Shown here piece after piece: positions 1 through 9,000 of a DNA stretch of 64,000 bases. The position numbers were made by a program. Position 1 is the first letter of the stretch. Each line of letters opens with the position of its first letter. The DNA is taken from NCBI RefSeq assembly GCF_054482595.1, contig NZ_CM137008.1; one strand, given 5' to 3'.

Positions 1-3000
1 CTGGATGGTTGAACTTAAAGAGCCGTTTGCCACGTTATGGCGCGGTAAAGATCCTTTTGAGGAAGTTAAAACCTTGCAGGGTGAGGTATTTCGTGAACTG
101 GAAACTCGCCGTACTCTGCGCTTTGAAATGGCGGGCAAAAGCTATTTTCTCAAATGGCATCGCGGCACGACCCTGAAAGAGATAATCAAAAATTTACTCT
201 CATTGCGGATGCCAGTATTAGGCGCAGACCGCGAATGGAATGCGATTCATCGACTGCGGGATGTCGGCGTTGATACTATGTATGGGGTGGCATTCGGCGA
301 AAAAGGCATGAATCCGCTGACCAGAACCTCGTTTATTATTACCGAAGATCTGACACCAACCATCAGTCTGGAAGATTACTGTGCTGACTGGGCGACCAAC
401 CCACCAGATGTTCGCGTAAAGCGTATGCTTATTAAGCGTGTCGCGACGATGGTGCGCGATATGCATGCTGCGGGCATTAACCATCGTGACTGTTATATCT
501 GTCATTTCCTGCTGCACTTGCCTTTTTCCGGTAAGGAAGAGGAGTTAAAAATTTCGGTAATTGACCTACACCGGGCGCAGCTTCGCACGCGCGTTCCACG
601 TCGTTGGCGCGATAAAGATCTTATAGGGCTTTATTTTTCTTCAATGAATATCGGCCTGACTCAGCGGGATATCTGGCGGTTTATGAAAGTGTATTTTGCC
701 GCCCCGCTTAAAGACATTCTCAAGCAGGAACAAGGACTGCTGTCGCAAGCAGAAGCAAAAGCCACAAAAATCAGGGAAAGAACGATTCGAAAATCGTTGT
801 AATTTCCGGAGAGAAATATGAGTGCCCACTATTTTAATCCACAAGAGATGATCAATAAGACAATCATCTTCGATGAAAGGCCAGCGGCGTCAGTGGCATC
901 ATCATTCCATGTTGCTTATGGCATTGATAAAAACTTTCTTTTTGGTTGTGGTGTTTCAATCACGTCAGTTTTGTTACATAACAACGACGTGAGTTTTGTT
1001 TTCCACGTTTTTATTGATGATATCCCTGAAGCCGATATCCAGCGTTTAGCCCAATTGGCGAAAAGCTATCGTACCTGTATCCAGATCCATCTAGTAAATT
1101 GTGAACGGCTTAAGGCATTACCGACGACCAAAAATTGGTCTATTGCCATGTATTTCCGTTTTGTAATTGCAGATTACTTTATTGATCAACAAGATAAGAT
1201 CCTTTACCTGGATGCTGATATCGCCTGTCAGGGAAACTTAAAGCCGCTGATAACAATGGATCTTGCCAATAACGTTGCTGCTGTTGTTACTGAACGCGAT
1301 GCTAACTGGTGGTCGTTACGGGGTCAAAGTCTGCAGTGTAATGAACTTGAAAAGGGTTACTTTAATTCAGGTGTCCTGTTAATTAATACACTAGCGTGGG
1401 CGCAGGAGTCCGTTTCTGCTAAAGCGATGTCGATGCTTGCTGATAAAGCCATCGTTTCCCGTTTAACCTATATGGATCAAGATATCCTTAATCTTATCCT
1501 GTTAGGGAAAGTTAAATTCATTGATGCTAAATACAATACGCAATTTAGTTTAAATTATGAATTAAAAAAATCATTTGTTTGTCCAATTAATGATGAAACC
1601 GTATTAATTCATTATGTCGGCCCGACAAAACCCTGGCATTACTGGGCCGGTTATCCAAGTGCGCAACCTTTTATCAAAGCCAAAGAAGCATCGCCCTGGA
1701 AAAATGAACCGTTAATGCGGCCAGTTAACTCAAACTATGCTCGTTATTGCGCCAAGCATAATTTTAAACAAAACAAACCAATTAACGGGATAATGAATTA
1801 TATTTATTATTTTTATTTAAAGATAATAAAATGAAATTGAGGAAAGTTAAATGAATGAATTTATAAAAGAACGGTTTTCGTATTTAGCAGATAATAAAAA
1901 AGAAAACGCCCCAGAGCTAAATGTTTCCTACGGTATCGATAAGAATTTTTTGTATGGTGCTGGCGTTTCAATTTCTTCCGTTTTGATTAATAATTCAGAT
2001 ATTAATTTTGTCTTTCATGTTTTCACTGATTATGTGGATGATGATTATTTAAAGTCATTTAATGAAACAGCAAAACAATTTAATACCTCAATTATTGTAT
2101 ATTTAATTGACCCCAAATACTTTGCTGATCTGCCGACGTCACAGTTTTGGTCGTACGCGACATACTTCAGGGTATTGTCTTTTGAATATCTGAGTGAAAG
2201 TATTTCCACACTGCTGTATCTGGATGCCGATGTTGTTTGTAAAGGAAGCCTGAAACCTCTCACAGAAATTATATTTAAAGATGAGTTTGCTGCGGTCATT
2301 CCTGACAATGATAGTACTCAGGCGGCATGTGCAAAACGCCTCAACATTCCCGAAATGAATGGACGTTATTTCAATGCAGGCGTTATCTATGTCAATCTTA
2401 AAAAATGGCATGAAGCAAATTTGACACCGTATTTACTCAAACTTTTACGAGGGGAAACTAAATATGGCTCTCTTAAATATTTAGATCAGGATGCGTTGAA
2501 TATCGCATTTAATATGAATAATATCTACCTTGCGAAGGATTTTGATACTATTTATACCCTGAAAAACGAACTTTATGATCGTAGTCATCGAAAGTATCAG
2601 CAAACCATTACCGATAAAACAGTGTTGATTCACTATACAGGGATAACTAAACCATGGCATAGCTGGGCTGGATATCCGTCTGCATCATACTTTAATATCG
2701 CGCGTGAACAATCTCCCTGGAAGAAATATCCTCTTAAAGAGGCGCGGACTGTTGCAGAAATGCAGAAACAATATAAGCATCTGTTTGCCCATGGTGAGTA
2801 TATAAAAGGCATAACTTCATTAATTAAGTACAAGCTTAAGAAATAAATTACTCTTATGATTACAAGTATACGTTATCGCGGCTTCTCATTTTATTACAAA
2901 GATAATGATAATAAATATAAAGAAATCTTTGATGAAATACTGGCCTATAATTTTAAAACAGTAAAAGTATTACGTAATATTGATGATACCAAAGTATCTT

Positions 3001-6000: not shown

Positions 6001-9000
6001 AAATGCAATCGAAATATAAATGGTTTCTATTTTATGCCAACTTTGCTTTAAGCTTTGCAGCAGTGATGATGACAGGAACGCGTGCGGCAATTTTTACATT
6101 CCCACTTATGATTATGGTCATATTATTTCTTCAGCATCGTGATCAAAAAGTGTTTTTATTTAAAGGATTGAGTGGTGTTTTTATATTGCTACTTGCTTGT
6201 GGTTTGATATTTAATAAGGAAATTGAGAGGCGAATTAATTCATTAAAAGCTGATGTTATTTCATATGCTACAAAAAATAACAGTCAATCCTCGGTCGGAG
6301 CACGTTTTGCAATGGTTAACGCAGGAATTAAAGGAAGTCCTGATGGTTTTAATTGGCAATCTCTTGAGCAGCGTGCTGAAAAGATAAAAGCATTAAGTGC
6401 AGACAATAATATTTATAGTGGAGCTTTATTATTCCTTGATGTACATATGCATAATGAAATTGTTGAAGCTCTTTCCACGAAAGGGAAAATTGGTCTTCTT
6501 GTTCTTATTATGTTCTATGTTGCAATTATCTACTACTGTATCCGGGAGAAAAAATATATACTTTTGGTTTTCCCTGCTTCTATTATGTTATTTGGCATTA
6601 GTGATGTCATTACGCATGCTAAACCAATACCGGCATCATGGATTGTGTGCCTCTTCCTGTCTATATCGTTTTTGAGTAAAAAAGAACCGCAATAATAAAA
6701 ACGTTGATTAAGTAAGTGGGTATAATGCCCACTTACTATTTATTAAATCAATGTAATTTCTTTATAAACAGCCGCTGCTTCTAAATTATTTAAACTCTTT
6801 AGCGGAGCCCTGCAAACCATCTGATTCTTCCCATATCCGCCAATTAATCCCGGATCGGTTGGTCCATAAACCGTGATATTGGGTCTATCCAGTGCCGCCG
6901 TTAAATGGCTTAACCCCGTATCCACCGACACTACAAATTTAGCCCCGGCCAGCACGCGGGCAACGCCTTCCAGACTCATCTTCGGCAATACTTCAACATA
7001 AGCAAATCCTTCCGCCAGTCGTTTCGCCCGTTCTTCCTCATGCGGCGCGCCCCACGGAAGTTTAATCCGTATTCCTGAATCAGCCAGTAAACCAATCAAT
7101 TCTCGCCAGTGTTCTTCCGGCCAGTGTTTATCATCACGGGTCGTCGCATGAAGAAATACGGCATATTCGCCAGCATCTGTAGGCAGGTTCGTCAGAAAAT
7201 GCTGTGCGATAGCATAATCGCCCTGGGTTTGCGGTTTGCTATAGCCCAAACTTTTGGCAAATAGTTCGCGGGTGCGTTCTACGGCGTGCTGCTGTTTTGC
7301 AATATGATGCTTACGATTGTAAAACAGGCTGGCTAAAGGTTCGCGAGCGGTTTGCCAGTCCATGCCATGCTTTACGCCATGCGCCAGACGCGTCACCAGC
7401 GCCGCGCTTTTTACCAGCCCCTGAGCGTCGATAACTGCGTCATAGTTCTCTGCTTGTAGCGCTTCACGAAACGCTTTGCGTTCCGCTTTTATGGGGGCCG
7501 AGAACCAGGCTTTACGCCAGCGACGTATTGCCACAGGAATAACTCGCTCAACGGCAGCGTGCCAGGAAGGAATCTGTGCGAACCCTTCTTCCACCACCCA
7601 GTCAAACTTAATCCCTGGGATTGCCTGCTGGGCATCAGTGAGTGCGGGCAACGTATGGAGAACATCGCCCATCGACGATGTTTTAACGATCAAAACCCGC
7701 ATCCGTCAGGCTTCCTCTTGTAACAATAGCGCGTTGAGTTCTTCCAGTACGCGCTGGGGAGTAATGTCGATTAAGCTCTGGTGATAACCCTCCGCAGCGT
7801 CACCTTTACGCACTTTGTGATAGCCGGTAATCAAACGGATCACGCGCGCTTTATGGGATAGCGGCGGTGTGAAGTCCGGGCTACTCGGACCATACAGGGC
7901 AACCAGCGGACGATTGAGCGCCGCCGCAACATGCATCAGGCCAGAATCGTTAGTGACAATGGCTTTACAGGCTGCAATCAGGATAACCGCTTGATCAAGC
8001 TGTGTTTCCCCCGCCAGGTTCCGACACCATGCCTGCTGCTCGGTATTCAAAGCGGCAAGAATCTCATTGCCCGCTTCATGATCTTTCGCCGAGCCAAACA
8101 GAACCACCTGATAACCTTCATCAATCAGCTGCTTTGCCAGCTCCGCATAGTGGTAGTGTGGCCAGCGTTTTGCCGGACCAAACTCCGCACCCGGGCAAAA
8201 ACCAATCATCGGACGTTCTGATGAAAGCGAAAATTGATTACAGGTATATGATTTTTCACCTTCGCTCACCTGCAATTGCGGCCATAACAACGGTTTTGGT
8301 AGATCTTGTGCGGTACGCATAATGCCTTTGTCATAGGCCAGCGCTATATAGCGTTCCACCATTAGCGGCCAGGCTTCTTTATCGAGCACGCGTACATCGT
8401 TGAGTAAACCGTAGCGCATCTCGCCGCGCCAGCCGGTGCGATGAGGAATACCCGCGAAGAAAGGCACTAATGCAGATTTGAAGGAGTTGGGTAAGACGTA
8501 GGCGCGGTCGTAGCGCTTTTCACGCAGACTATGACCCAGTTTGCGGCGTTCGCCGATTTCCAGCGCTCCGTGACCGAGAGGCATAGGAATAGCTTCGTTA
8601 ACTTCCGGCATCCGCGATAATAATGGACGGCACCATGCCGGTGCCATCACATCGATTATCGCCTGGGGATAGCGCGCCTGGAGCGTGCGATAGAGACTTT
8701 GCGACATCATCATGTCGCCAACCCAAGACGGGCCGATCACCAGTATTTTCATGCAGAGCTCTTATGCGTCGCGATTCAGCCAGGCCATGTATTCCGTTAC
8801 ACCTTCAGCAACGGTTTTGAACGGTTTGTCGTAACCCGCCGCGCGCAGATTTGTCAGATCTGCCTGAGTGAACGCCTGATAGCGGCCTTTCAGTTTATCC
8901 GGGAACGGAATGTATTCGATCTGGCCTTTCTTGTGATAAGCCAGCGTAGCATCAGCTACAGCCTGGAAGGATTCCGCACGACCAGTACCGAGATTGAAGA

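What the first reader, a model, noticed from the sequence alone, without database searches (positions are those of the whole stretch)
818..6695. Outer-core LPS block is R1/R4-type and compositionally foreign
Between waaP and waaL, K-12 has waaS-waaB-waaI-waaJ-waaY-waaZ-waaU. This window instead has GT8, GT8, waaY, GT8, GT25, waaL, which matches the R1 order (waaO-T-Y-W-V-L) or R4 order (waaX in place of waaV). The block is visibly AT-rich compared with waaP and waaCF, typical of horizontally exchanged core loci. The GT25 gene next to waaL determines the O-antigen attachment sugar.
Basis: partly seen in the sequence, partly recalled or inferred. Interest (0 to 1): 0.35.

Follow-up and report, generated by a model that had tools for sequence, protein, structure and literature searches.

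The report
Ordinary E. coli R4 LPS core locus
This stretch is the well-known gene block that builds the "R4" type of E. coli lipopolysaccharide outer core; about one complete E. coli genome in eight carries it, so it is ordinary.

Summary
Window 818-6695 carries six intact + strand genes: GT8, GT8, WaaY kinase, GT8, GT25 and an O-antigen ligase. They lie between waaP and the convergent waaC-waaF-hldD. GC is 34.7%, against 51.2% for the rest of the window.

- **R4 amplicon:** published typing primers give exactly the 380-bp waaW-waaX product. No R1, R2, R3 or K-12 primer has a site.
- **R1 comparator:** it carries an unrelated GT2 gene (waaV) where this window has the GT25 gene, and its WaaL is only 36% identical.
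- **Published typing:** the window differs at 1 of 64,000 bases from strain XH990, which is typed R4 in the literature.
- **Frequency:** 690 of 5,426 complete E. coli genomes (12.7%) carry the same GT25-waaL cassette.

R1 and R4 loci differ only in a cassette of about 2.3 kb (about 4500-6800), with sharp junctions inside the 3' ends of waaW and waaC.

Low GC is real but not special to this type. The K-12 and R1 outer-core blocks and a Citrobacter amalonaticus homologue are equally AT-rich, so it does not show recent import.

The beta-galactose added by WaaX is the O-antigen attachment site only by analogy with R1.

Already known; low interest.

The parts
5..802 (+). waaP (rfaP), LPS core heptose(I) kinase; conserved gene upstream of the variable block
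   Evidence: NCBIfam RfaP equivalog, E 4e-145. 99.2% aa identity to the R1 strain and 84% to K-12. GC 47.6%.
818..1834 (+). waaO, GT8 alpha-1,3 hexosyltransferase that adds HexII (glucose in R1/R4) to GlcI
   Evidence: Pfam GT8+GT8C. NCBIfam PRK15171 at 612 bits, above its cut-off. 97.3% aa identity to R1 WaaO and 50.6% to K-12 WaaO. Sources name it UDP-glucose:(glucosyl)LPS alpha-1,3-glucosyltransferase.
1851..2846 (+). waaT, GT8 alpha-1,2-galactosyltransferase that adds HexIII (Gal I)
   Evidence: Pfam GT8+GT8C. 98.5% aa identity to R1 WaaT and 43% to K-12 WaaJ. The role is taken from the R1/R4 literature, not tested here.
2856..3548 (+). waaY, heptose(II) kinase
   Evidence: Pfam WaaY, E 4e-129. 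NCBIfam RfaY equivalog. 99.1% aa identity to R1 and 52% to K-12.
3574..4602 (+). waaW, GT8 alpha-1,2-galactosyltransferase that adds the terminal Gal II. Its last ~100 bp are R4-specific.
   Evidence: Pfam GT8+GT8C. 93.3% aa identity to R1 WaaW, with nearly all differences after nt ~4500. The shared R1/R4 primer site is at 4443-4462.
4634..5407 (+). waaX, GT25 beta-1,4-galactosyltransferase; the R4-defining gene. It adds the beta-Gal side branch on HexII.
   Evidence: Pfam GT25, E 1.2e-51. The R4-specific primer site is at 4804-4822. Identical proteins are named beta-1,4-galactosyltransferase. No similarity to R1 WaaV. GC 29.8%.
5442..6695 (+). waaL, R4-type O-antigen (surface polymer) ligase; GTG start
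   Evidence: Pfam Wzy_C at 32.6 bits, just above the 31.7 cut-off. 36% aa identity to R1 WaaL and 31% to K-12 WaaL. 63-64% to the WaaL that follows GT25 in C. amalonaticus and Cedecea. RefSeq uses the same coordinates.
4500..6802 (+). R4-specific replacement cassette (3' end of waaW, waaX, waaL, intergenic hairpin, 3' end of waaC); the only part that differs from R1 loci
   Evidence: blastn homology to the R1 locus ends at 4531 and resumes at 6803. Mismatches jump from 0-1 to 7-14 per 20 bp at ~4500. GC of 4532-6802 is 30.8%. Found in 690 of 5,426 genomes.
6711..6737 (.). 12-bp-stem hairpin between convergent waaL and waaC; a possible two-way terminator
   Evidence: Consensus scan only: 1 site found against 1.4 expected in shuffles. 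Weak evidence.
6743..9694 (-). waaC, waaF, hldD (rfaD): the conserved inner-core heptose operon that bounds the block
   Evidence: NCBIfam equivalogs RfaC, RfaF and ADP-glyceromanno-heptose 6-epimerase. GC 51-53%. waaC matches 5,424 of 5,426 genomes.

Best explanation
The block is the outer-core part of the waaQ operon of an E. coli strain with an R4-type lipopolysaccharide core. The window matches the ST1011 / phylogroup D strain XH990. After WaaG adds Glc I, WaaO adds alpha-1,3-Glc (HexII). WaaT adds alpha-1,2-Gal (HexIII) and WaaW adds a terminal alpha-1,2-Gal. WaaX, the GT25 enzyme, adds a beta-1,4-Gal side branch on HexII. That branch is the only structural difference from R1, where the GT2 enzyme WaaV adds beta-Glc instead. 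WaaP and WaaY phosphorylate Hep I and Hep II. In the periplasm, WaaL transfers undecaprenyl-PP-linked O-antigen (or ECA) onto the finished core, most likely onto the WaaX-made beta-Gal. What is shown here: gene identities, protein families, order, intactness, the R4-diagnostic amplicon, identity to published R4-typed genomes, and the cassette boundaries against R1. What is inferred: the individual sugar linkages (from the R1/R4 literature) and the beta-Gal as ligation site (by analogy with R1).
For: Gene order and families. In-silico PCR with the Trofimova et al. 2025 primers (PMC13293308) gives sites at 4443-4462 (+) and 4804-4822 (-). That is a 380-bp product, exactly the published R4 size, and none of the R1, R2, R3 or K-12-specific primers matches at up to 4 mismatches. 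As a positive control, the R1 comparator L002 gives the published 842-bp R1 product. The window differs from XH990 at 1 of 64,000 bases, and XH990 and Santai are listed as R4 in that paper's supplement. The GT25-waaL cassette is in 690 of 5,426 genomes, or 12.7%; the published R4 frequency is 12.3%. About 1,838 further genomes match only waaO-waaW plus waaC and carry a GT2 gene instead. That is 34%, close to the published R1 frequency of 35.4%. R1 and R4 differ only in the HexII branch sugar (PMC9927288). The GT25-WaaL pair is kept together in C. amalonaticus and Cedecea.
Against: Nothing in the sequence argues against R4. There are three limits. No LPS chemistry was done. The enzyme specificities come from work on the prototype strains F470 and F2513, whose sequences were not compared directly here. 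The R4 O-antigen ligation site is described in the literature as assumed, supported only by mass spectrometry of trace ECA-LPS (PMC7504096). WaaL passes the Pfam cut-off only narrowly (32.6 against 31.7 bits), which is usual for these divergent membrane proteins.
Confidence: 0.96

Rival explanations
1. It is an R1-type core locus (waaO-T-Y-W-V-L), the commonest E. coli type.
For: The first four genes are 93-99% identical in protein to those of an R1 strain, and the gene order is the same.
Against: The R1 comparator has a 327-aa GT2 protein at the fifth position, with no detectable similarity to the 257-aa GT25 here. R1 WaaV's only hit in the window is waaH, at 32% over 139 aa. WaaL is only 36% identical to R1 WaaL. 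The R1-specific primer is absent from the window but present in the control.
Confidence: 0.01
2. It is a hybrid or rearranged R1/R4 locus like the one reported for ECOR46, with both waaV-waaL(R1) and waaX-waaL(R4).
For: Such a hybrid is described in PMC13293308.
Against: There is one waaL, no waaV, no transposase and no duplicated genes in the block or elsewhere in the 64-kb window. The locus is contiguous and collinear with 690 other genomes.
Confidence: 0.01
3. The AT-rich block is a recently imported foreign island specific to this strain or lineage.
For: GC is 34.7% against 51.2% in the flanks, with sharp composition boundaries at waaP/waaO and waaL/waaC. R4 is scattered over phylogroups: A 5%, D 61%, F 51%, G 85%. 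The R1/R4 junctions are sharp.
Against: Both other E. coli core types examined here (K-12 and R1) have an equally AT-rich block at the same chromosomal site: K-12 33.3%, R1 35.3%. So does the homologous C. amalonaticus locus, at 30-35%. No integrase, IS or tRNA lies at the borders. The nearest non-E. coli WaaX is only 71% identical, so no recent donor is visible. The evidence fits long-standing allelic cassettes exchanged by homologous recombination within the species, not a recent island insertion.
Confidence: 0.02

Closest known systems
E. coli R4 core-type waa locus (prototype strain F2513; Heinrichs et al. 1998, J Biol Chem 273:29497, cited via PMC7504096)
   Same: Same gene order waaP-O-T-Y-W-X-L convergent with waaC, with a GT25 waaX next to waaL. 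It gives the 380-bp R4 diagnostic amplicon. It is identical to genomes typed R4 in PMC13293308.
   Different: No difference was detected. The prototype F2513 sequence itself was not available for direct comparison. Among R4 genomes this waaX-waaL allele is a minority variant: only 131 of 694 matching records are at least 99% identical, and most are 95-99%.
E. coli R1 core-type waa locus (F470; here the 'FDA strain Seattle 1946' comparator, L002)
   Same: waaP, waaO, waaT, waaY and most of waaW are 94.5-98.8% identical at DNA level, in the same order. waaL is likewise the last gene of the waaQ operon.
   Different: The cassette at ~4500-6800 is replaced. R1 has GT2 waaV (beta-1,3-glucosyltransferase) instead of GT25 waaX, and its WaaL is only 36% identical.
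E. coli K-12 core locus (waaS-B-O-J-Y-Z-U, waaL on the opposite strand)
   Same: Same chromosomal site between waaP and waaC, a similarly low GC (33.3%), and homologous WaaO (51%), WaaY (52%) and WaaL (31%).
   Different: This window has no waaS, waaB, waaZ or waaU. K-12 waaL is transcribed with waaC, whereas here it is transcribed with the waaQ operon.
waa locus of Citrobacter amalonaticus (L005) and the GT25-WaaL pair of Cedecea sp. (L004)
   Same: C. amalonaticus has the identical architecture GT8-GT8-WaaY-GT8-GT25-WaaL convergent with waaC. WaaX is 67-71% identical and WaaL 63-64% identical, much closer than E. coli R1 or K-12 WaaL.
   Different: They are different genera with only 63-87% protein identity. 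Cedecea has GT4+GT8 upstream instead of GT8-GT8-WaaY-GT8. The core structures of these strains were not looked up.

Membership tests
E. coli R4 core-type waa locus | Gene order waaP-waaO-waaT-waaY-waaW-waaX-waaL on one strand, convergent with waaC | tested here: met
   ORFs and families; RefSeq annotation of the identical locus.
E. coli R4 core-type waa locus | Presence of waaX (GT25 beta-1,4-galactosyltransferase) between waaW and waaL | tested here: met
   Pfam GT25, E 1.2e-51. Identical proteins are named beta-1,4-galactosyltransferase. The waaX-specific primer site is present.
E. coli R4 core-type waa locus | Diagnostic waaW-waaX PCR product of 380 bp (Trofimova et al. 2025) and no product for the other types | tested here: met
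   Primer sites at 4443-4462 (+) and 4804-4822 (-) give 380 bp. All other type-specific primers are absent at up to 4 mismatches. The R1 positive control works.
E. coli R4 core-type waa locus | Sequence identity with genomes independently typed R4 | tested here: met
   100% identity over 818-6695 to XH990 and Santai, both listed as R4 in the supplement of PMC13293308. The whole window differs from XH990 at 1 base.
E. coli R4 core-type waa locus | Core oligosaccharide with a beta-1,4-Gal branch on HexII (the chemotype itself) | not testable with these tools
   Needs MS/NMR or an R4-specific antibody. The structure is taken from the literature (PMC9927288).
E. coli R1 core-type waa locus | waaV (GT2 beta-1,3-glucosyltransferase) between waaW and waaL | tested here: not met
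   R1 WaaV is GT2, has no similarity to the window's GT25, and hits only waaH elsewhere in the window.
E. coli R1 core-type waa locus | R1 diagnostic 842-bp waaW-waaV product and R1-type WaaL | tested here: not met
   The R1-F primer is absent. WaaL is 36% identical to R1 WaaL.
E. coli K-12 / R2 / R3 core types | Type-specific genes (waaS, waaB, waaZ, waaU; waaK; waaD, waaJ) or their diagnostic primers | tested here: not met
   No tblastn hits for K-12 WaaS, WaaB, WaaZ or WaaU. No K-12, R2 or R3 primer sites. Those genomes match only waaC. R2- and R3-specific proteins were not compared directly.
O-antigen ligase WaaL (Pfam Wzy_C, PF04932) | Wzy_C domain in a polytopic membrane protein of about 400 aa encoded in the waa cluster | tested here: met
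   PF04932 at 32.6 bits against a 31.7 cut-off. Full-length alignment to R1 WaaL, E 2e-75, and to K-12 WaaL, E 1e-42. Ligase activity was not tested.
Horizontally acquired genomic island | Deviant composition plus mobility genes, a tRNA or repeat borders, and presence in only some strains | tested here: not met
   Composition is deviant. However, no integrase, IS or tRNA is annotated in or beside the block, and every strain has an allelic AT-rich block at this site. Border repeats were not searched for.

The most novel reading that the evidence does not exclude
The GT25 (waaX) and waaL genes form a co-adapted two-gene module, one making the acceptor sugar and the other the matching ligase. This module moves as a unit between Enterobacterales genera (E. 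coli R4, Citrobacter amalonaticus, Cedecea). R4 would then have arisen from an R1-like locus by one homologous replacement with junctions inside the 3' ends of waaW and waaC. That would give a direct handle for testing whether WaaL acceptor specificity co-evolves with the neighbouring transferase. The cassette idea was already raised in the 1998-2000 R1/R4 papers, so even if true it is an extension rather than a discovery.
Probability: 0.4. Interest if true: 0.2.

Novelty: already known. Interest (0 to 1): 0.08.

Why it matters
The core type sets which sugar the O-antigen is attached to. It also affects recognition by phages, amoebae and core-directed antibodies, so typing this strain as R4 is useful metadata. 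It is a routine typing result with published tools and raises no open question. The one loose end is that the O-antigen attachment residue in R4 is still only assumed.

Tried and rejected
- **Recalled primers:** I searched primers recalled from memory as those of Amor et al. 2000. Only one, TGGAATGATGTGGCGTTTAT, matched, at 4450-4469. Because I could not verify my recall, I did not use them as evidence and relied on the primers read from PMC13293308.
- **Plasmid-borne copies:** four 'plasmid' records hold the cassette. One is a 4.9-Mb record that is evidently a chromosome. The others are non-mobilizable fragments of 3-10 kb containing only waa genes. I rejected these as assembly or labelling artefacts.
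- **Recent donor:** the closest non-E. coli WaaX is 71% identical, so no donor can be named.
- **Promoter and terminator scan of 4400-7000:** no more sites than in shuffled sequence, apart from one hairpin between waaL and waaC.
- **Searches not run:** I did not use the large metagenome or genome-collection scans, structure prediction or RNA searches. The identification was already unambiguous and the cost was not justified.
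Full report
**Observation.** Window 818-6695 holds six closely spaced, intact + strand ORFs: 818-1834, 1851-2846, 2856-3548, 3574-4602, 4634-5407 and 5442-6695.
- Pfam assigns them to GT8+GT8C, GT8+GT8C, WaaY, GT8+GT8C, GT25 (E 1.2e-51) and Wzy_C O-antigen ligase.
- NCBIfam identifies RfaP (5-802) upstream. RfaC, RfaF and the ADP-heptose epimerase lie downstream on the - strand.
One detail differs: K-12 waaL is on the opposite strand, co-directional with waaC. Here and in R1 it is the last gene of the waaQ operon.

**Composition.**
- The block is 34.7% GC. waaX is 29.8% and waaL 32.3%.
- waaP is 47.6%, waaC/waaF/hldD are 51-53%, and the rest of the window is 51.2%.
- No other 5.9-kb stretch of the window falls below 41.9%.

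**R1 or R4?** Four independent lines give R4.

1. *In-silico PCR.* I used the typing primers of Trofimova et al. 2025 (PMC13293308, Table 2).
   - The shared waaW primer sits at 4443-4462 (+) and the waaX-specific primer at 4804-4822 (-).
   - The product is 380 bp, exactly the published R4 size.
   - The R1, R2, R3 and K-12 specific primers have no site even at 4 mismatches.
   - As a control, an R1-like locus (L002, 'FDA strain Seattle 1946') gives the published 842-bp R1 product.
2. *The fifth gene.*
   - In L002 the gene between waaW and waaL encodes a 327-aa GT2 protein. It has no BLASTP similarity to the 257-aa GT25 protein here.
   - R1 WaaV finds only waaH elsewhere in the window.
- A GT25 gene next to waaL is therefore compatible with waaX (R4) and not with waaV (R1).
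3. *Identity to typed genomes.*
   - The block is 100% identical to XH990, Santai and others.
   - The whole 64-kb window differs from XH990 96001-160000 at a single base.
   - XH990 (ST1011, phylogroup D, O86:H51) and Santai are listed as R4 in the supplement of PMC13293308.
4. *Population frequencies.*
   - The waaX-waaL segment is present in 690 of 5,426 complete genomes, 12.7%. The published R4 frequency is 12.3%.
   - About 1,838 further genomes (34%) match only waaO-waaW plus waaC and have a GT2 gene in between. The published R1 frequency is 35.4%.
   - The remaining genomes match waaC only.

- K-12 WaaS, WaaB, WaaZ and WaaU have no hit in the window.
- The window's proteins are 93-99% identical to R1 WaaO, WaaT, WaaY and WaaW. 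They are only 31-52% identical to their K-12 counterparts.

**Anatomy of the type-specific part.**
- Against the R1 locus, DNA homology runs without gaps from window 1 to about 4500-4531 and resumes at about 6803.
- Mismatches rise from 0-1 to 7-14 per 20 bp at about 4500.
- The R4-specific cassette is thus about 2.3 kb. It holds the last ~100 bp of waaW, waaX, waaL, a 47-bp spacer with a 12-bp-stem hairpin (6711-6737; weak evidence) and the last ~60 bp of waaC.
- The cassette (4532-6802) is 30.8% GC.

**How it works.** The biochemistry is taken from the literature, not shown here.
- R1 and R4 cores share the backbone and differ only in the sugar branching from the HexII glucose. It is Glc in R1 and Gal in R4 (PMC9927288).
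- PMC13293308 names waaX as a beta-1,4-galactosyltransferase and waaV as a beta-1,3-glucosyltransferase.
- WaaO, WaaT and WaaW build the Glc-Gal-Gal chain. WaaP and WaaY phosphorylate the heptoses. WaaL ligates the undecaprenyl-PP-linked polymer to the core.
That is established for R1 WaaV.
- For R4, PMC7504096 says the beta-Gal was 'assumed previously' to be the site, and its own support is mass spectrometry of trace ECA-LPS. I rate this step likely but inferred.
- That paper speaks of 'high similarity' between R1 and R4 WaaL. I measure 36% identity, against 31% to K-12 WaaL.

**Is it 'foreign'?**
- The low GC is real, but it is not a mark of this type or of recent acquisition.
- The K-12 outer-core block is 33.3% GC and the R1 block 35.3%. 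The homologous Citrobacter amalonaticus genes are 30-35%.
- No integrase, IS or tRNA lies in or beside the block.
- WaaX relatives outside E. coli reach at most 71% identity: Cedecea, Pluralibacter, Buttiauxella, C. amalonaticus, Leclercia and others. No recent donor is visible.
- C. amalonaticus has the same GT8-GT8-WaaY-GT8-GT25-WaaL architecture. Cedecea has the GT25-WaaL pair behind different transferases.
- Their WaaL proteins are 63-64% identical to the one here, far closer than E. coli R1 or K-12 WaaL.
- This fits an old transferase-ligase module kept together across genera. Within E. coli it behaves as an allelic cassette exchanged by homologous recombination. R4 is scattered over phylogroups A (5%), D (61%), F (51%) and G (85%).

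**Verdict.**
- The locus is intact, common, already described and typable with published tools.
- Novelty: already known. Interest: low.

Noticed in passing
window 9695-9907: The gap between hldD and kbl is only 213 bp. The yibB/htrL gene that sits here in K-12 (L003 12695-13552) and in C. amalonaticus (L005 12314-13171) is absent from this strain.
   Followed up: no
window 818-1834: RefSeq/NCBIfam name waaO 'lipopolysaccharide 3-alpha-galactosyltransferase'. Other sources name the identical protein UDP-glucose:(glucosyl)LPS alpha-1,3-glucosyltransferase, and HexII of R1/R4 is glucose. This looks like a name carried over from the Salmonella enzyme.
   Followed up: partly
window 37174-46035: An Rhs element region: full-length rhsC (41851-46035), truncated rhsB and RHS-core fragments, yhhH, a yibA pseudogene and an Imm57-family immunity gene (37174-37695). 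It has low-GC patches (33-37%) at about 36.3-37.5 kb and 38.5-40 kb, which fits swapped toxin/immunity tips.
   Followed up: no
window 25445-29388: A frameshifted, N-terminally truncated YadA-family autotransporter adhesin pseudogene, a separate ESPR signal-peptide ORF and a hypothetical pseudogene. There is a low-GC patch (34-40%) at 28.5-29.7 kb.
   Followed up: no
window 6711-6737: A perfect 12-bp-stem hairpin (AGTAAGTGGGTA/TACCCACTTACT) sits in the 47-bp spacer between convergent waaL and waaC, inside the R4-specific cassette. It may be a two-way terminator. The scan found no more such sites than in shuffled sequence.
   Followed up: partly
L002 7219-8199 versus window 6743-7702: The right-hand R1/R4 junction lies inside the 3' end of waaC. 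WaaC therefore has a core-type-specific C-terminus: 319 aa here and in K-12, but annotated as 326 aa in the R1 strain.
   Followed up: partly
plasmid records NZ_CP134663.1, NZ_CP070033.1, NZ_CP034391.1, NZ_CP059911.1: Four records filed as plasmids carry the R4 cassette or part of it. One is 4.9 Mb (evidently a chromosome) and three are non-mobilizable pieces of 3-10 kb holding only waa genes. These are probably labelling or assembly artefacts.
   Followed up: partly
window 4634-6695 versus other R4 genomes: The waaX-waaL cassette has distinct allelic classes among R4 genomes: 131 records at 99% or more, 486 at 95-99% and 77 at 90-95% identity to this one. This window's allele is a minority variant.
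   Followed up: no
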